NCBI GenBank assembly: GCA_963760725.1 | Contig: CAVXET010000039.1 | Coordinates: forward strand, 63,497-127,496 | DNA length: 64,000 bases | Reading direction: 5' to 3' | Origin: an uncultured Gammaproteobacteria bacterium | Lineage (GTDB): Bacteria > Pseudomonadota > Gammaproteobacteria > Steroidobacterales > Steroidobacteraceae | Made by a program: the position numbers and the translations under genes | Notes under the pieces: generated by a model | What the model saw: only the letters and a program-made list of their open reading frames with translations | Told to the model about the DNA's origin: nothing | Databases searched by the model: none | Shown here: positions 34,865 through 41,733 of the stretch, piece by piece | Layout of the letters: every line of letters starts with the position of its first letter | How positions within the stretch are numbered: the stretch's first letter is position 1

Positions 34865-35149
34865 ATGAGCGAAAAGCCGAAAGAAGAATTCGAAGACGAA
34901 GAGCCGGACGAACTCGAGGAAGCCGCCGAGGACCTCGATGTCGACCGGTTGATGCGGGATTTCGACACCCGCAAGCGTCGCGGTGCCCGTGCCGTGGCCG
35001 CGGAACCCGCCTGGCGCAAGCTCGAGCGCATTCGCGAGGAAAAGCGCACGGCGGGCCTGCTGTCCGACTTCGAGGACTACGACGTCGACGAGACGGGCTC
35101 CGGGTCCGGGAAGAAGCCGCGCCGCGTCCCGGTCCCCCGCCGGCGCTAG
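34865..35149 (+). CDS. Small highly charged hypothetical protein (acidic N-terminal half, basic tail)
   Basis: MSEKPKEEFEDEEPDELEEAAEDLDVDRLMRDFDTRKRRGARAVAAEPAWRKLERIREEKRTAGLLSDFEDYDVDETGSGSGKKPRRVPVPRRR. GC3-rich codons support coding. The stop overlaps the convergent dnaE2 stop region by 4 nt. Confidence 0.55.
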   Translation: MSEKPKEEFEDEEPDELEEAAEDLDVDRLMRDFDTRKRRGARAVAAEPAWRKLERIREEKRTAGLLSDFEDYDVDETGSGSGKKPRRVPVPRRR

Positions 35150-38100
35150 CGGAAGCTCCTCGCCTTCGTCATCAGGCTCCCCAGCAGCGCCGAGCGGTCC
35201 TCGAGCGTGTCGACCACGACGTGCCGGACCTCGCCCTCGCGTTGCAGCCGCCCACGGACCCCGAGCAACCGGGCGCCCAGCATCGCCTTGCGGTGTGCGT
35301 CCGCGATGCGGCTCCACACCACCAGGTTCACGTAGCCCGTCTCGTCCTCGAGCGTCACGAAGATGACCCCGCCGGCGCTACCCGGTCGCTGGCGCGTGAC
35401 GACGATCCCGCCGGTGGCGAGGGGCGCACCATCGGCGAGGTCCGCCACCTCGGCGGCCGTCAGCCAGCCGTCCTGCTCGAGCTGCGGGCGCAGGAGCGCG
35501 AGCGGGTGCCGCGCCAGCGTGAGCCCGAGCGCACGGTAGTCGGCGACGATGTCCTCGCCCTCGGTCGGTGACCGGAGCAGCGGCAGGCCCTCCTCGCGCT
35601 CCGCGGCTGGCAGGAGCGGCAGCGCCGGCTCGATCCCCAGCACGTCCCAGGCCGCCCGATGCCGGTGCCCGGCAATGCCGGCCAGGGCGCCCGCCGCGGC
35701 GAGCGCCCCGAGGTCGCGCCGGCCGAGGCCGGCCCGGCGCGCCAGCTCGGAAACCCGCGCGAACGGGCCATCGGCGCGGGCGGCGACGATGCGCCCGGCC
35801 GCCTCGCGCGCGAGCCCCCGCACGCGGTCGAGGCCGAGGCGCAGCGCCTGCGTACCGCCCTCCGCCGACTCGAGCGTCGATTCCACGGCGCTCTCGTTGA
35901 CGCCGGCGGGCCGCACGGAGACGCCGTGCGTACGTGCATCGCGCACCAGCTGCGCCGGCGCGTAGAAGCCCATGGGCTGGCTGTTGAGGAGCGCGCAGCA
36001 GAAAGCGGCGGGCTCGTGCCGCTTGAGCCAGGCCGAGACATAGACCAGCAGCGCGAAGCTCGCGGCGTGAGCTTCAGGAAATCCGTAGTCGCCGAAACCG
36101 AGGATCTGCTGGAAAACCTGCCGCGCGAAGCCCTCGTCGTAACCGCGCGCGCGCATGCCTTCGACGAGGCGCTGCTCGAACGGGCCGAGGCCTCCCTTTC
36201 GCTTCCAGGCCGCCATCGCGCGGCGCAGGCTGTCGGCCTCGCCGGGCGTGAAACCCGCGGCCACGATCGCGAGCTGCATCACCTGCTCCTGGAAGATCGG
36301 CACCCCGAGCGTGCGCGAGAGCACGCCCTCCACCTCCGGGCCCGGGTAGTGGACCGGCTCCTGGCCGCTCCGCCGGCGCAGGTACGGATGCACCATCTGG
36401 CCCTGGATCGGGCCGGGACGGACGATCGCGACCTCGATGGCGAGGTCGTAATAGCACTTTGGCCTGAGCCGCGGCAGCATCGCCATCTGCGCGCGCGACT
36501 CGATCTGGAACACGCCGACCGTGTCGGCGCGGCAGATCATCTCGTAGACGTCGGGGTCCTCGGCCGGGATGTCCGCCAGCCGGAATTCCGCCCCCCGGCG
36601 CGCGGTGACCAGCGCGAGCGCACGGCGGATCGCCGTCAGCATGCCGAGCCCCAGCACGTCCACCTTGAGCAGCCGGAGTTCGTCGAGGTCGTCCTTGTCC
36701 CACTGGATCACGGTGCGCTCGGGCATCGCCGCGTTCTCGATGGGCACGAGCTCTTCGAGCGGCCCGCGCGAGATCACGAAGCCGCCCGTGTGCTGCGACA
36801 GGTGGCGCGGGAAGCCGATCAGCTCGCGCGTCAGCGCGAGCACCCGCGCGATGGCCGGGTTCGCCGTGTCGAAGCCCGCGTCATGGATGCGCGAGTCCTC
36901 GACTTCGCGGCCGTCCCACCACTGCATCGCGCGCGCGAGGCGCTCGACCTGCGACGGATCGAGGCCGAGGGCCTTGCCGACGTCGCGCACCGCGCTCTTC
37001 GGCCGGTAGCAGATCACCGTCGCGGTGAGCGCGGCGCGGGCGCGGCCGTACTTCGCGTAGAGAAACTGGATCACTTCCTCGCGCCGCTCGTGCTCGAAGT
37101 CCACGTCGATGTCGGGGGGCTCGTTGCGCTCGCGCGAGATGAAGCGCTCGAACAGCATCGACATGCGCGCCGGGTCGACCTCGGTGATGCCGAGCGCATA
37201 GCAGGCGGCCGAGTTCGCCGCCGAGCCGCGCCCCTGGCACAGGATGCCGCGACCGCGCGCGAACTCGACGAGGTCGTGCACGGTCAGGAAATAGCGCTCG
37301 TAGCCGAGCTCCGCGATCAACCCGAGCTCACGCTCGATGAGCTGCCGCACCGCCGTCGGCATCCCCGCAGGCCAGCGCCGCACCGCGCCCGCCTCCACCA
37401 GGCGGCGCAGCTGCGCCGCCGGCGTCGTGCCCGCCGGCACGATCTCCTCCGGATACTCGTAGCGCAGTTCGTCGAGCGAGAACGCGGCAGCGCCCGGCAA
37501 TGTCCCGCGTCGCCTCGACGAGCGCGCGCGGGTACAGCGATTCGATGCGGCCGAGCGGGCGCAGCGCGCGCTCCCCGTTCGGATGAAGCGCACGGCCGGC
37601 ATGCGCGACCGTCGTCTTCAGGCGCACCGCGGTCAAGAGGTCCTGGAGCGCCCGGCGGCGGCGCTGGTGCATGTGCACGTCGCCCGCCGCGACTGCCGGA
37701 AGCGAGAGTTCGCCCGCGAGCGTGCCCAGCCGCTCGAGCCGTTCCCGGTCGGTGCCCGAGGCCGTGAGCTCCACCGCGACCCAGAGCCGCCCCTCGAAGC
37801 GCGCCCGCAGCCAGGCTCCCTCGTCGCGTGCGGGCTCGGCGCCCGGGAGCCACAGCGCGAGGCAGTCCGGCAGCCCCGCGTCGAGGTCGTCCCGCGTGAG
37901 CCGGTACTGGCCTTTCGCGGCCGCGCGCCGGCCCCGCGTGACGAGGCGCGCGAGCGCGCCGTATCCGCCGCGGTTCTGTGCGAGCGCGACGAAGCGCAGG
38001 CCGTCCGCGAGCCGGAACTCGCTGCCGACGATGAGCGGCAGGCCCGCCTCGCGCGCGGCGGCATGGGCGCGCACGACGCCCGCGAGCGAGCACTCGTCGG

Positions 38101-38215
38101 TCAGCGCGAGCGCCGCGTAGCCGAGCGCCTTCGCACGCTCGACGAGTTCCGCCGGATGCGACGCGCCCCGCAGGAACGTGAAATTGCTGATGCAGTGCAA
38201 TTCCGCATACGACAT
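35146..38215 (-). pseudogene. dnaE2: Error-prone DNA polymerase DnaE2 (ImuC); 1 frame break
   Basis: ORF 37328-38215 starts MSYAELHCISNFTFLRGASHPAELVERAKALGYAALALTDECSLAGVVRAH (PHP domain). ORF 35146-37602 continues with YPEEIVPAG...LIAELGYERYFLTVHDLVEFARGRGILCQGRGSAANSAACYALGITEVDP...PPDIDVDFEHERREEVIQFLYAKYG...GFVISRGPL...AIVRPGPIQGQMVHPYLRRR. The frame change is near 37500. It lies downstream of imuA-imuB. Confidence 0.92.
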
Positions 38216-38261
38216 CGCGCTTCCATGGCGAAGTCACGCCCGCCGCGCGGGCGTTGCGCGG

Positions 38262-38314
38262 CCGGGACTCCGCTCGCTCGCGCCGGAACTTGATGCGCTC
38301 GCTCGCGGGTCCCG
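38262..38314. repeat. Palindromic repeat element, copy 1 (inverted orientation relative to copies 2 and 3)
   Basis: CCGGGACTCCGC-TCGCTCGCGCCGGAACTTGATGCGCTCGCTC-GCGGGTCCCG. The reverse complement of its loop, GAGCGAGCGCATCAAGTTCCGGCGCGAGCGA, differs at 2 of 31 positions from the copy-3 loop. Confidence 0.8.
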
Positions 38315-38372
38315 TCCGCACGCACCGCGCGGCGGACGCTGCCACCACCGGCCGCCCCGCGCGAGGTGGCGT

Positions 38373-38421
38373 GGGTGTCCCCGAGCGGAGCATAAAGTTC
38401 CGGCGAAGCGAGGGGACACCC
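38373..38421. repeat. Palindromic repeat element, copy 2
   Basis: GGGTGTCCCC-GAGCGGAGCATAAAGTTCCGGCGAAGCGA-GGGGACACCC has a perfect 10-bp stem. The stem sequence differs from copies 1 and 3, but the loop is clearly related (GAG.G.GC.....AAGTTCCGGCG....CGA). Confidence 0.75.
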
Positions 38422-38471
38422 CGCCGGATCCCGCGCGGGGCGGCTGAACTCGGCGACGTCTCACGAGCGTT

Positions 38472-40010
38472 TCATCCGAACACGCCGTGAAGGAACCAGC
38501 GCTGTCCCGGCGGGCGCTCGCGGAAGATCCAGAGGCGCACTCCGGCGCGGCTCTGCGCGACGTAGTAGTCGCGCCGGACGTCATGCCCGTCCCACCACCC
38601 TGACTCGATGCGCTCCGGACCGGTGATCAGCGTGCCCTCCCAGTCGTCGAGCGGCTGCGGCTCGGCCAGCATCCACAGCGGCCGCGTCGCGCGTGCAGCG
38701 GCGCTCCAGGGCATCGGCAGCGCGCCGGCAGCGCCCGGCTCCGCGATCCGGAAGGCGCGCTCGGGGCGATGCTCCGATACCGGCATCACGCCGAACACGG
38801 CCTCATGCCCGAGCCGCGCACGCAGCAGGTCGAGCAGACGTGCCGTCGCTTCCGGGTCCGCGCCCTGGCCGCGCTCGAACAGCCCCGCGTCGCGAAGCAC
38901 CAGCGGCGACAGCACGCCGGAGCGCAGCCTGAGTGCGACGACCGGCAGGTCGAGCCGGCAGCGCCCGAGCCGCTCGTCGAGCAGCTCGCCGAGCTCGGCC
39001 GCGCCGCCCGCGAGGCGCGCGAGCGCGATGCGAAGCCGCGTCGGCGCCGCGTCGCGATGCAGGAGGTCGACGCGCAGCTCGCGGATACCCGAGGCGCGGG
39101 CACGCAGGAACGCCGCGAGCTGCGCCAGCAGGTGCCCGAGCGCGGGTTGCAGCACGGCCACGGATTCCGCGGCGACGGGCAGTTCGAGCCGCTCGTCGAA
39201 GCGCTCCGGCACGAGATGGCGCCGGCGCGGCGCAGGACGGCGGCCGAGCCCCTCGTCGAGCTCGTCGAGCAGGTGCGGCCCGAAACGCGCGGCAAAGCCC
39301 GTCCGCGGCAGCCTGAGCAGGTCCGCGACGCTCGTGATGCCGAGCCCGGCGAGTGTCGCGACCGTATCTGCGGGCCACTGCAGGCAGGCGAGCGGCAGCC
39401 GCGATGCGATGCCGGGCAACGCATCGGTGCGGGTCACCGTCATCGCGAGCTCGGCGCGTGCCAGCCAGAGCGCGCCGCGCGCCGTCGGTGCGAGCGCGAG
39501 CGAGGCCGACAGGCCGCTCGCCGAGAGGCCCGCGAGCGCGCGCCGCAGCAGGGCCATGACGCCGCCGAAGAGGTCGAGGCTGCCGCGCACCTCGGCGAGC
39601 ACGGCGCCCGGCGGCTCGAGGCTGACGACCGGCGTGAACTGCAGGGCCCAGCGCCCGAGGCGGTCGAGCAGCGCGGTTTCCGCCGCCGGCCTCTGTTCCA
39701 GGGCGCGCAGCCCCGGCACGAGGGCGAGCGCGGCATTCAGGCCCATGCCGGGCGCAATGCCCTGGCGCGCCGCACGCTCGTTGCAGGCGATGACGGCACG
39801 GCGCGGATCGCCCGCCGCGGTGACCGCGGTCGCGTGCGCCTGCCCGGTGCCCAGCACCAGCGCATCGAGCGGCAGGCGGGGAAAGTGGGCGGCGAGCCAG
39901 AGCTCGCCGGCCGGGGCGGCCGGTTCCGTGCGCGGCGCGGGCACCGGCACGAGTGCGCGCCGACGACTGGCCGCTGCCGGCGCGATCGGTGCCGGACGTC
40001 CTTCGAGCAT
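38472..40010 (-). CDS. imuB: Y-family polymerase-like protein ImuB
   Basis: ELWLAAHFPRLPLDALV...VIACNERAARQGIAPGMGLNAALALVPGL...LDRLGRWALQFTPVVSLEPPGAVLAEVRGSLDLFGG... The intact 512-aa ORF lies between imuA and dnaE2. Confidence 0.88.
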   Translation of the reverse strand: MLEGRPAPIAPAAASRRRALVPVPAPRTEPAAPAGELWLAAHFPRLPLDALVLGTGQAHATAVTAAGDPRRAVIACNERAARQGIAPGMGLNAALALVPGLRALEQRPAAETALLDRLGRWALQFTPVVSLEPPGAVLAEVRGSLDLFGGVMALLRRALAGLSASGLSASLALAPTARGALWLARAELAMTVTRTDALPGIASRLPLACLQWPADTVATLAGLGITSVADLLRLPRTGFAARFGPHLLDELDEGLGRRPAPRRRHLVPERFDERLELPVAAESVAVLQPALGHLLAQLAAFLRARASGIRELRVDLLHRDAAPTRLRIALARLAGGAAELGELLDERLGRCRLDLPVVALRLRSGVLSPLVLRDAGLFERGQGADPEATARLLDLLRARLGHEAVFGVMPVSEHRPERAFRIAEPGAAGALPMPWSAAARATRPLWMLAEPQPLDDWEGTLITGPERIESGWWDGHDVRRDYYVAQSRAGVRLWIFRERPPGQRWFLHGVFG

Positions 40011-40637: not shown

Positions 40638-41257
40638 TGCATGACGTCCGCGCGGCTGCGCCGCAGCACGCCGACCACCACGCCCTCGATCGTCATCGAC
40701 TGCTTGCGCAGGTCCACGCGGATCGGCTCGAAATCCGGGTTCTCCGGCATGAGCCACACGACCGAACCGTCCTGCTTGTAACGCTTGACGGTCACCTCGT
40801 TCTCGAGGCGCGCGACGATGATCTGGCGGTTGCGTACGTCGGTCGAGCGGTGCACGGCGACGAGGTCGCCGTCCAGGATGCCGACGTCGCGCATGCTCAT
40901 GCCGCTGACGCGCAGCAGGTAGTGCGGGCGCGGGCTGAACAGCGCCGGGTCGACCTGGAAGCGGCCCTCGATGTGCTCTTCGGCGAGGATCGGACGGCCG
41001 GCGGCGACCCGGCCGATGAGGGGCAGCCCGAACTGCTCGCGCAGGGCATCCTTCAGCACGATGCCGCGCGCGCTGCCTGCGACCAGGTTGAGCACGCCCT
41101 TGCGCTGCAGGGCCCGCAAGTGTTCCTCGGCGGCATTGGCGGAGCGGAAGCCGAGGGCATGGGCGATCTCCGCACGGGTGGGCGGCAGGCCGTTCGCGGC
41201 GATTGCGTCCTGGATGAACTCGAGGATCTGGCGTTGGCGGGGCGTGAGGTCCGACAT
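40634..41257 (-). CDS. lexA: LexA repressor (first gene of the lexA-imuA-imuB-dnaE2 cassette)
   Basis: [55 protein letters not shown] (wHTH), the cleavage site VAAGRP, the catalytic Ser in RVSGMSMRD and the catalytic Lys in VTVKRY. The start is taken at an internal ATG of ORF 40634-41338. Confidence 0.93.
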
Positions 41258-41283
41258 GGTCCACCTGTATGGATGATCAGGTG

Positions 41284-41299
41284 CTGTGATTATATACAG
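41284..41299. promoter_or_regulatory. LexA (SOS) box upstream of lexA
   Basis: CTGTGATTATATACAG fits CTGT-N8-ACAG and lies 27-42 nt upstream of the lexA ATG. Confidence 0.85.
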
Positions 41300-41395
41300 G
41301 CAGATCGTTTCCCTGGCAAGCACTCGCTTCAAGACCATTCACGATCGCGCGGCCACATGGGGTGGTCGTCGATACCGGGCACCCAGACAAGCGCG

Positions 41396-41450
41396 CCGGG
41401 ACCCCGCGAGTGAGCGCATCAAGTTCCGGCGCGAACGAGCGGGGTCCCGG
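41396..41450. repeat. Palindromic repeat element, copy 3
   Basis: CCGGGACCCCGC-GAGTGAGCGCATCAAGTTCCGGCGCGAACGA-GCGGGGTCCCGG has a perfect 12-bp stem and a 31-nt loop. Confidence 0.8.
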
Positions 41451-41733
41451 CAGCGAAGTCCGGGTGCCGTGCATCCGCAACCGGCGCACTCTCCGCGAGC
41501 ACGCGTGGATGCATCGAGTCGTGTGCAAAAAGCGAAACGGGTGCGCCGGCGTGTCCGACAAAGGCGGGTTGAGCGATGTCGCTGGCCGGCGACAAGCGCG
41601 CGCGCCGCTTTCCCCTGCCCCGCTGATACGTTACGATCCGCATCGCCACCGCGCGGGGAGGAAGGACCGCCGGCGCCGTGCATCCGCGGAAGCGGCTTGT
41701 AACGTTCCATGCAACCTTATGGAGAAAAATCTC

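What the first reader, a model, noticed from the sequence alone, without database searches (positions are those of the whole stretch)
38262..38421. Two copies, in opposite orientation, of a hairpin element with conserved loop and covarying stem, in the imuB-dnaE2 spacer
The 256-nt gap between imuB and dnaE2 contains two hairpins.
- Copy 1 (38262-38314) is CCGGGACTCCGC...GCGGGTCCCG, with a loop that reads GAGCGAGCGCATCAAGTTCCGGCGCGAGCGA on the opposite strand.
- Copy 2 (38373-38421) is GGGTGTCCCC-GAGCGGAGCATAAAGTTCCGGCGAAGCGA-GGGGACACCC.
- The stems have different sequences but both pair well, while the loop core (GAG.G.GC.....AAGTTCCGGCG....CGA) is conserved.
Conserved-loop, covarying-stem behaviour is what one expects of a functional RNA or DNA structure or a REP/MITE-like family, not of chance palindromes. 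Lying inside an SOS-induced operon, they could act as mRNA stabilisers, processing sites or protein-binding sites that uncouple dnaE2 expression from imuAB.
Basis: seen in the sequence. Interest (0 to 1): 0.62.

Follow-up and report, generated by a model that had tools for sequence, protein, structure and literature searches.

The report
Dispersed hairpin repeats in SOS operon
The two hairpins between imuB and dnaE2 are real, but they are copies of an undescribed repeated hairpin element found in many unrelated gene gaps of Steroidobacteraceae-like soil bacteria, although this pair has stayed in this SOS operon gap across the whole group.

Summary
Each "hairpin" is a palindrome of about 95 nt (C1 38239-38336, C2 38350-38445), and a third copy lies upstream of lexA (41378-41468).

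- **Structure.** The conserved "loop" is mostly helical. On one strand it reads C-GA-GC-GA-GCGC-[AUAAAGUUCCG]-GCGC-GA-GC-GA-G, with two tandem G·A/A·G mismatches and an 11-nt apical loop.
- **Family.** A model finds 101 distinct units in 492 kb of Steroidobacteraceae-like MAG and soil-metagenome DNA. They are nearly all intergenic, mostly between convergent or co-directional genes. None occurs in plasmids, phages or Rfam.
- **Covariation.** 95.8% of stem cells are paired, and 19 of 22 pairs show changes on both sides.
- **Pairs.** Adjacent units have one fixed polarity in 31 of 32 cases, and the two units have different arms.
- **This site.** All ten orthologous imuB-dnaE2 spacers (ImuB identity 63-96%) keep the element. 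C1 is 78-100% identical where synonymous sites are 47-87%.

It is therefore a REP/BIME/REPIN-like family of unusual build and an old resident of this operon. It lacks the tags that define REPs, and no transposase was found. An effect on dnaE2 expression is plausible but untested.

The parts
38239..38336 (-). C1: long hairpin unit, subtype B. The core strand is the minus strand, which is the sense strand of the operon.
   Evidence: The fold is -74.6 kcal/mol. The covariance-model hit is 38251-38323 (-), 66.4 bits. The 70-nt core is 96-100% identical in orthologs L014, L083 and L134.
38273..38304 (-). C1 top module, GAGCGAGCGCATCAAGTTCCGGCGCGAGCGAG. It has two tandem G.A/A.G mismatches, a 4-bp GCGC helix and an 11-nt apical loop.
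   Evidence: Pattern match. The helical register is supported by compensatory changes in the module's helices across the family.
38337..38349 (.). Short linker between the two units of the pair.
   Evidence: It varies in length and sequence among orthologs and among paralogous pairs.
38350..38445 (+). C2: long hairpin unit, subtype A1. The core strand is the plus strand, which is antisense to the operon. Its parts are an outer stem GCCGCCCCGCGCG/CGCGCGGGGCGGC, an internal loop AGGT/GGATCC and an inner stem GGGTGTCCCC/GGGGACACCC.
   Evidence: The fold is -77.5 kcal/mol. The covariance-model hit is 38365-38431 (+). It is 96.8% identical over 95 nt to a copy in an unrelated locus, L066.
38383..38413 (+). 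C2 top module, GAGCGGAGCATAAAGTTCCGGCGAAGCGAGG.
   Evidence: In orthologs L083 and L134 (and, degenerate, L014) this inner part is of another subtype (A2), so it was swapped in the window's lineage.
41378..41468 (+). C3: third unit, subtype B, in the divergent lpp-like/lexA control region. It lies about 80 nt beyond the LexA box.
   Evidence: The fold is -68 kcal/mol. The covariance-model hit is 41390-41460 (+), 67.2 bits. It is present in L083, L164 and L165, flipped in L014 and L165, and absent in L166.
38472..40010 (-). imuB, the gene upstream of the spacer.
   Evidence: Pfam IMS match. Sources name close homologues 'protein ImuB'.
35146..38215 (-). dnaE2, the gene downstream of the spacer. 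Its reading frame changes near 37481.
   Evidence: Pfam PHP, DNA_pol3_alpha, finger, HHH_6 and OB domains on two ORFs. tblastn with the intact ortholog shows the frame change at residue 245.
41284..41299 (.). LexA box CTGTGATTATATACAG of the cassette promoter. It is the only such box in the window.
   Evidence: Regex CTGT-N8-ACAG. The same box precedes lexA in L164-L166.

Best explanation
C1 and C2 are one inverted pair, and C3 a single unit, of a dispersed chromosomal family of long hairpin repeats. The family is confined, as far as sampled, to Steroidobacteraceae-like soil Gammaproteobacteria. It works like REP/BIME/REPIN elements but has a different build.

**Build (shown).**
- Each unit has GC-rich arms that fall into many subtypes.
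- It has a nearly invariant 32-nt top module. On one strand only, this module forms a helix with two tandem G.A mismatches under an 11-nt loop, AUAAAGUUCCG.

**How it spreads (partly shown, partly inferred).**
- Whole hairpins, arms included, are the unit that is copied to new sites and swapped between copies. This is shown by identical arms at unrelated loci and by wholesale, fully compensated replacement at orthologous sites.
- I infer that spread goes through a folded single-strand intermediate, recognised at the top module by an enzyme encoded elsewhere.
- I infer that arm pairing is kept by template switching within the palindrome and by gene conversion between copies.

**Pairs (shown).** Pairs are built with one fixed polarity: on either strand the C.U form comes first and the G.A form second. 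The two units have unlike arms.

**Role in the operon (inferred).** The pair has sat between imuB and dnaE2 since before these genomes diverged. In the lexA-imuA-imuB-dnaE2 transcript it would form two hairpins of about -75 kcal/mol, 26 nt after the imuB stop and 23 nt before the dnaE2 start. The most likely effect is the one known for REP/BIME elements: a barrier to 3'-5' decay and a partial block to read-through. That would give less dnaE2 than imuB message.
For: **Dispersal**
- A 16-mer scan of one genome per species gave hairpin-flanked copies only in Steroidobacteraceae-type MAGs.
- A metagenome scan gave 46 loci.
- Model R1 gives 103 matches, 101 distinct units, in 492 kb.
- nhmmer finds only 4 weak, core-only hits in 781 kb of unrelated loci.
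- Only L014, L083 and L134 among these loci are imuB/dnaE2 loci.
- At 44 sites with both flanks determinable, 23 are convergent, 18 co-directional and 3 divergent.
- Soil-metagenome contig depth rises 30-60 fold over the loop bins.

**Structure**
- 95.8% of cells are paired, against 69% in shuffles and 35-45% when partners are slid.
- 19 of 22 pairs have changes on both sides. The covariation score is 0.517 against 0.122.
- Pairs inside the 'loop' also change on both sides: CG to UA 9 times, GC to AU 9 times, GC to UA 8 times. Copy L155 replaces one G.A tandem by C-G pairs.

**Pairs.** 31 of 32 adjacent pairs have polarity (-,+).

**Whole-unit copying**
- C2 is 96.8% identical to a copy in L066, and C1 is 95.5% identical to copies in L066 and L126, all in other contexts.
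- In L134 the C2 outer arms differ at more than 5 positions per arm yet pair perfectly.

**Old residence**
- All ten orthologous spacers carry the element: plus L014, where the second unit is degenerate.
- C1 identity is 0.78-1.00, against 0.47-0.87 at third codon positions.
Against: - 'Tens per genome' rests on contig depth and on a few non-ascertained sites.
- No mobilising enzyme was found. A RAYT-motif scan of 492 kb found nothing, which is inconclusive.
- No empty site could be aligned cleanly, so insertion as such is not shown.
- The arms show no G.T versus A.C asymmetry (138 v 156, p = 0.32). Single units show no orientation bias relative to genes. Nothing therefore says that RNA rather than DNA is the working form.
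- All three copies in the 64-kb window, and all copies in six 21.5-kb orthologous loci, lie in the SOS cassette. That is more clustering than a random repeat would suggest.
- The alignment used for covariation was fitted to the model's structure. Palindromes can also covary through template switching without any selection (PMC5941160).
Confidence: 0.72

Rival explanations
1. The pair is a dedicated cis-regulatory element of the SOS mutagenesis operon. It would be selected to set the ImuB:DnaE2 ratio or to time dnaE2 expression. The copies elsewhere would be a side product, or co-opted members of the same RNA or protein-binding motif.
For: - The pair is present in all ten orthologous spacers down to 63% ImuB identity.
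- C1 is far better conserved than synonymous sites, for example 70/70 against 0.74 for L083.
- The unpaired spacer segments beside it are only 34-70% identical.
- There is no promoter and no LexA box in the spacer, so dnaE2 depends on read-through.
- All copies in the window and in the six 21.5-kb orthologous loci lie in the cassette.
Against: - The same units, with the same arms, lie between unrelated genes (L066, L126 and about 40 other sites).
- In L167 the whole pair is inverted relative to the operon, and L164 has only one unit.
- In the window's lineage the inner part of C2 was replaced by another subtype.
- The fixed polarity is a property of all pairs, not of this site.
- High conservation can also come from gene conversion with other copies.
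Confidence: 0.13
2. The hairpins are host-made, factor-independent ('I-shaped', no U-tract), two-way transcription terminators. They would have diversified in place and would not be mobile DNA.
For: - Sites are enriched between convergent (23) and co-directional (18) genes, with few divergent (3).
- The stems are very stable.
- One copy, in L066, is followed by TTTTCGTT.
- The polarity of pairs is symmetric, so both incoming transcripts meet the same arrangement.
Against: - There is no U-tract after C1, C2 or C3.
- The pair sits inside an operon with no downstream promoter.
- C3 lies in a promoter region.
- Near-identical 66-95-nt units at unrelated loci and an invariant asymmetric top module are not expected of terminators that arose independently.
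Confidence: 0.08
3. They are chance GC-rich palindromes or an assembly artefact.
For: At 68% GC the sequence makes many spurious inverted repeats: 33 pairs in 400 nt.
Against: - A 31-nt match has 0 expected.
- Fold z-scores reach -7.
- About 100 related copies occur in independent assemblies from several projects.
Confidence: 0.01

Closest known systems
REP/BIME elements and GTAG- or CGTC-tagged REP superfamilies (E. coli, Pseudomonas, Stenotrophomonas; Di Nocera et al. 2013, PMC3733652)
   Same: - They are extragenic palindromic repeats in many copies.
- They lie mostly downstream of genes, between convergent and co-directional ORFs.
- Many units sit close together in opposite orientation, and several subtypes combine in pairs.
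- They are thought to act as RNA hairpins or protein-binding DNA.
   Different: - Units here are about 95 nt, not 20-40.
- The conserved part is the top of the hairpin, not the stem.
- There is no GTAG or CGTC tag at the foot.
- The arms fall into many unlike subtypes.
- The tandem G.A platform has no counterpart that I know of in REPs (own knowledge).
REPINs and their RAYT transposases (Bertels and Rainey 2011, PMC3116915)
   Same: - Inverted pairs are the dominant and better conserved form.
- Pairs are predicted to fold in ssDNA or mRNA.
- Whole pairs recur at unrelated sites (L066, L126), as expected of a replicative unit.
   Different: - In a REPIN the two REPs pair with each other. Here each unit is its own hairpin, the partners have unlike arms, and only their top modules are complementary.
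- No RAYT was found, but the genome could not be searched.
Other 'invariant loop, variable stem' hairpin families noted by this scan in Steroidobacteraceae (e1-4078269, e1-4070031, e1-3050573)
   Same: - They come from the same bacterial family and have the same overall design.
- The second loop class found here (GAGTGTCCGTTCTTCCGA) resembles the loop GTGTCTGCCTTTCC of e1-4078269 and sits on the same GAGCGAGC platform.
   Different: - The AAGTTCCGG loop class was not in those notes.
- Those notes are unchecked AI notes, not published families.

Membership tests
REP (GTAG/CGTC-tagged superfamilies) | Small palindromic unit of 20-40 bp | tested here: not met
   The three units in the window fold over about 91-98 nt. 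Model matches are 64-75 nt even without the outer arms.
REP (GTAG/CGTC-tagged superfamilies) | Unpaired GTAG or CGTC motif at one end of the palindrome | tested here: not met
   At most 2 of 96 units have any of GTAG, CTAC, CGTC or GACG at a given foot. Chance would give 1-6.
REP (GTAG/CGTC-tagged superfamilies) | High copy number in extragenic space, mainly downstream of ORFs (co-directional or convergent) | tested here: inconclusive
   The context criterion is met: 41 of 44 sites are convergent or co-directional. Depth ratios suggest tens.
REPIN | Inverted pairs over-represented and acting as the replicative unit | tested here: met
   32 adjacent pairs against 37 single units, with 31 pairs in one polarity. 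The C1+C2 pair recurs in L066 and L126 in other contexts.
REPIN | The two REPs pair with each other to form one hairpin | tested here: not met
   Each unit folds on itself. The partners have unlike arms. Only the top modules are mutually complementary (pair I4).
REPIN | A cognate RAYT (Y1 transposase) gene flanked by the repeats | not testable with these tools
A motif scan of 492 kb of held loci found none, which proves nothing.
MITE | Conserved terminal inverted repeats plus target-site duplication | tested here: not met
   The ends (outer arms) are the least conserved part. No direct repeat is seen at the unit borders in the aligned orthologs. The test is weak because no clean empty site was found.
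Intrinsic terminator | GC-rich stem followed by a U-tract | tested here: not met
   Neither hairpin in the spacer is followed by a U-tract. The scan's single terminator-like hit is an alternative fold inside C2, followed by ACTTTATGCT.
Any Rfam family | Reaches the family's gathering score | tested here: not met
   The best hits have E = 4-10, far below gathering scores.

The most novel reading that the evidence does not exclude
The invariant top module, with its two tandem G.A mismatches and fixed 11-nt loop, is the ligand of a dedicated protein that reads it on one strand only, as ssDNA or RNA.

The family, together with the sister loop class GAGUGUCCGUUCUUCCGA on the same platform, would then be a modular system in which the platform is the handle and the loop is an exchangeable address.

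The pair kept in the imuB-dnaE2 spacer across the whole clade would be a selected post-transcriptional control of the mutagenic polymerase DnaE2.
Probability: 0.12. Interest if true: 0.65.

Novelty: new variant of a known kind. Interest (0 to 1): 0.4.

Why it matters
**Annotation.** These three features should be labelled as members of a repeat family, not as SOS-specific regulators.

**Repeat biology.** The family reverses the usual REP logic: the top is conserved, the arms come in many subtypes, pairs have a strict polarity, and the mismatch platform exists on one strand only. The persistence of the G.A mismatches matters because template switching should otherwise mend a palindrome. Their survival is evidence that something reads that exact sequence. 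This gives a concrete handle (oligonucleotide pull-down) for finding the partner protein.

**SOS biology.** A very stable double hairpin sits in front of dnaE2 in a whole bacterial family. This is a testable candidate for uneven expression within the imuA-imuB-dnaE2 mutasome operon.

Tried and rejected
- **Literature.** No paper links Steroidobacter with REPs, and the core 11-mer occurs only as unrelated sequence in eukaryotic and biotechnology papers.
- **MAFFT with RNAalifold** on unaligned arms gave no structure. It was replaced by a hand-set structure and a covariance model.
- **Gene calling by GC3** chose wrong strands. It was replaced by a self-trained codon model applied to the flanks, which is still imperfect.
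- **Loop inserted into an existing palindrome, or arms made from the target.** Rejected. The A-type flanks never occur without the core, and units with identical arms occur at unrelated sites.
- **Strand test by wobble pairs** showed no asymmetry.
- **Empty site upstream of lexA.** L166 lacks the copy, but the region is too diverged to define borders.
- **RNA runs** are kept only as contigs. They show that the elements occur in metatranscriptome assemblies but give no 3' ends.

Full report
**Observation**

The window has 68% G+C. On the minus strand it carries lexA (40634-41257/41338), an imuA/SulA-like gene, imuB (38472-40010) and dnaE2 (35146-38215), as shown by Pfam. The imuB-dnaE2 spacer, 38216-38471, is 256 nt.

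Their central 16 nt are 94% reverse-complementary to each other (pair I4). Chance does not explain this:
- The 31-nt centre of C1 recurs at 41408-41438 with two mismatches, against 0 expected.
- Fold z-scores are -2.8 to -7.0.
- nhmmer and a covariance model find exactly three copies in the 64 kb, with E <= 7e-12. The next hit has E = 0.78.

The third copy, C3, lies upstream of lexA, beyond the only LexA box in the window (41284-41299). Folding 98-nt stretches shows that the units are much longer than reported:

| Unit | Extent | Energy (kcal/mol) |
|---|---|---|
| C1 | 38239-38336 | -74.6 |
| C2 | 38350-38445 | -77.5 |
| C3 | 41378-41468 | -68 |

**It is a dispersed family**

- A 16-mer scan of one genome per species gave mostly chance hits. 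Every hit with flanking inverted repeats came from Steroidobacteraceae MAGs or from one 'uncultured Gammaproteobacteria' MAG.
- Of those loci, L014 (93% nt identity) and L083 (86%) are orthologous lexA-imuA-imuB-dnaE2 loci. The other eight have no imuB or dnaE2 nearby.
- A more specific pattern found 46 metagenome contigs.
- Covariance model R1 then gave 103 matches, 101 distinct units, in 492 kb.
- In 781 kb of unrelated loci, nhmmer gave only four weak hits driven by the core.
- There is no match in Rfam, plasmids or phages, or the literature.

Flank coding strand was called with a self-trained codon model. Of 44 sites where both flanks could be determined, 23 lie between convergent genes, 18 between co-directional genes and 3 between divergent genes.

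In soil metagenomes the summed contig depth over the C1 loop bin is 30-60 times that of the flanks. In two runs under coded organism names it is about 6-12 times. Together with the few non-ascertained extra sites, this suggests tens of copies per genome. That figure is an estimate, not a count.

**Anatomy**

The alignment to the model shows three layers.
1. **Arms.** They fall into many subtypes: GGGACCCGC/GCGGAGTCCC, GGGTCCCC/GGGTCCCC, GGGGTGTCCCC/GGGGACACCCC, GGGGTCTCGC/GCGAGAACCCC and others. The A subtype has an extra outer stem and a conserved internal loop, AGGT/GGATCC.
2. **Top module.** It is almost invariant: C GA GC GA GCGC - AUAAAGUUCCG - GCGC GA GC GA G.
3. **Register of the module.** Written as a helix, G faces A and A faces G at two tandem positions, separated and flanked by Watson-Crick pairs.

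The register is supported by several observations:
- The module's own pairs show changes on both sides: CG to UA 9 times, GC to AU 9 times, GC to UA 8 times.
- Subtype A2 replaces the apical helix by CAAACUCG/CGGAGUUUG.
- Copy L155 replaces the inner G.A tandem by C-G pairs.

On the other strand the same positions are C.U/U.C. The module is thus asymmetric, although the arms show no wobble bias (138 v 156, p = 0.32).

Over the whole structure:
- 95.8% of cells are paired, against 69% in shuffles and 35-45% with slid partners.
- 19 of 22 pairs have changes on both sides.
- The covariation score is 0.517 against 0.122.

Two caveats apply. The alignment was fitted to the structure, and DNA palindromes can be kept paired by template switching without selection (PMC5941160). 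Under that mending process the G.A mismatches should be lost. Their persistence in about 90 distinct copies is the best sign that the exact module is read by something.

**Pairs**

Of 32 adjacent pairs, 31 have polarity (core on minus, core on plus). The exception is a truncated fragment. Some pairs are orthologs of each other, but about 18 are independent.

On either strand a pair reads 'C.U form, then G.A form', so it looks the same to transcripts arriving from both sides. The two partners nearly always have different arms. Sometimes they have a different loop class, GAGTGTCCGTTCTTCCGA, on the same GAGYGAGC/GCGARCGAG platform (L065, L131, L133, L145, L150, L162).

This second loop resembles the loop of an earlier unchecked note of this scan (e1-4078269). 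Several 'invariant-loop' families of these bacteria are therefore probably one superfamily.

**Dynamics**

- Units travel whole. C2 is 96.8% identical over 95 nt, and C1 95.5% over 66-89 nt, to copies in L066 and L126, which lie between other genes.
- A-type flanks never occur without the core. The loop was therefore not dropped into pre-existing palindromes.
- At the orthologous site, L083 and L134 carry an A2-type inner part and L014 a degenerate version of it, where the window has A1. The inner part of C2 was therefore replaced in the window's lineage.
- In L134 the outer arms of C2 differ at more than five positions per arm yet pair perfectly. The neighbouring genes are 94-96% identical. 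This is replacement by another copy, not stepwise compensation.
- The lexA-upstream unit is flipped in L014 and L165 relative to the window, L083 and L164, and it is absent in L166.

**The SOS site**

I fetched six further orthologous loci through ImuB homologues of 63-84% identity. Synteny from rne to clpS is the same in all six.
- Five of the six imuB-dnaE2 spacers (265-315 nt) hold a pair. L164 (161 nt) holds a single B unit, and L167 holds the pair inverted as a whole.
- With L014, L083 and L134, that makes ten of ten orthologous spacers that carry the element.
- Within these six 21.5-kb loci, the only copies of the family are in the cassette.

| Comparison | C1 identity | Third-codon-position identity |
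|---|---|---|
| L014, L083, L134 (70-nt core) | 0.96-1.00 | 0.74-0.93 |
| Six distant orthologs (about 98 nt) | 0.78-0.90 | 0.47-0.69 |

The unpaired spacer segments beside the hairpins are only 34-70% identical.

The spacer has no promoter-like site and no LexA box, and neither hairpin is followed by a U-tract. The scan's single terminator-like hit is an alternative fold inside C2. dnaE2 is therefore presumably read through both hairpins from the lexA promoter. C2 begins 26 nt after the imuB stop, and C1 ends 23 nt before the dnaE2 start.

**Interpretation**

- **Identity (confidence about 0.7-0.8).** This is a REP/BIME/REPIN-like dispersed hairpin family, and the pair is an old resident of this spacer.
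- **Membership.** It should not be filed as a REP. It fails the size criterion and lacks the GTAG/CGTC tag (PMC3733652). In a REPIN the two units pair with each other (PMC3116915), whereas here each unit folds alone. No RAYT could be sought.
- **Effect on the operon (inference from what REP/BIME elements do; own knowledge).** The likely effect is a decay barrier and partial attenuation that lowers dnaE2 relative to imuB.
- **Rival reading.** A dedicated SOS regulator keeps some weight (0.13) because of the site's conservation and the clustering in the cassette. Against it stand the same units at unrelated sites, the inversion in L167, the single unit in L164 and the subtype swap.

**Limits**

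- There was no genome-wide scan.
- The metagenome loci were chosen because they contain the element.
- Gene strands come from a rough codon model.
- RNA data exist only as contigs. They show the element in metatranscriptome assemblies but give no transcript ends.

Noticed in passing
window 37470-37490 (dnaE2): dnaE2 changes reading frame near 37481/37482, at residue 245 of 1022. The orthologs L164 and L166-L169 are intact at 1021-1023 aa. This is either an assembly error or a recent pseudogene.
   Followed up: partly
window 41257-41338: The longest lexA ORF starts at 41338, but the orthologs are 207 aa, which puts the likely start at 41257. The canonical LexA box CTGTGATTATATACAG (41284-41299) then lies in the promoter, not in the gene.
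   Followed up: partly
L065:430-500, L131:517-589, L133:11806-11879, L145:3523-3595, L150:456-527, L162:100-170: A sister class of hairpins has the same GAGYGAGC/GCGARCGAG G.A platform but another apical loop, GAGTGTCCGTTCTTCCGA. It is often the partner of an AAGTTCCGG unit in a pair. It is not present in the window.
   Followed up: partly
window 41378-41468; L014:5700-5800; L164:8543-8615; L165:8552-8622; L166:8263-8737: The lexA-upstream unit is flipped between orthologs and missing in L166. This region between otherwise 93%-identical loci cannot be aligned, so repeats turn over quickly here.
   Followed up: partly
L167:11592-11750: In this ortholog the whole imuB-dnaE2 pair is inverted relative to the operon: B unit first, A2 unit second. 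The (-,+) polarity is kept.
   Followed up: yes
window 41408-41468 and B-subtype copies in L060, L124, L129, L147, L151, L153, L161: Many B-type units share a purine-rich internal loop lower in the stem, with ..GCGAAG(T).. on the 3' arm opposite ..A(C)AA.. on the 5' arm. It is analogous to the AGGT/GGATCC loop of the A type. It was not analysed further.
   Followed up: no
L014, L165, L167, L169: Several long-contig MAG loci have many split genes, including dnaE2, T2SS genes and rluC. This is typical of uncorrected long-read assemblies, so frame changes in such records should not be read as biology.
   Followed up: no
window 41466-41478 and 41675-41687: Another first-stage note (e1-4033934) reports an exact 13-nt direct repeat, GCCGTGCATCCGC, in the same lexA/lpp region. 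The first copy abuts the foot of C3. I did not examine it.
   Followed up: no
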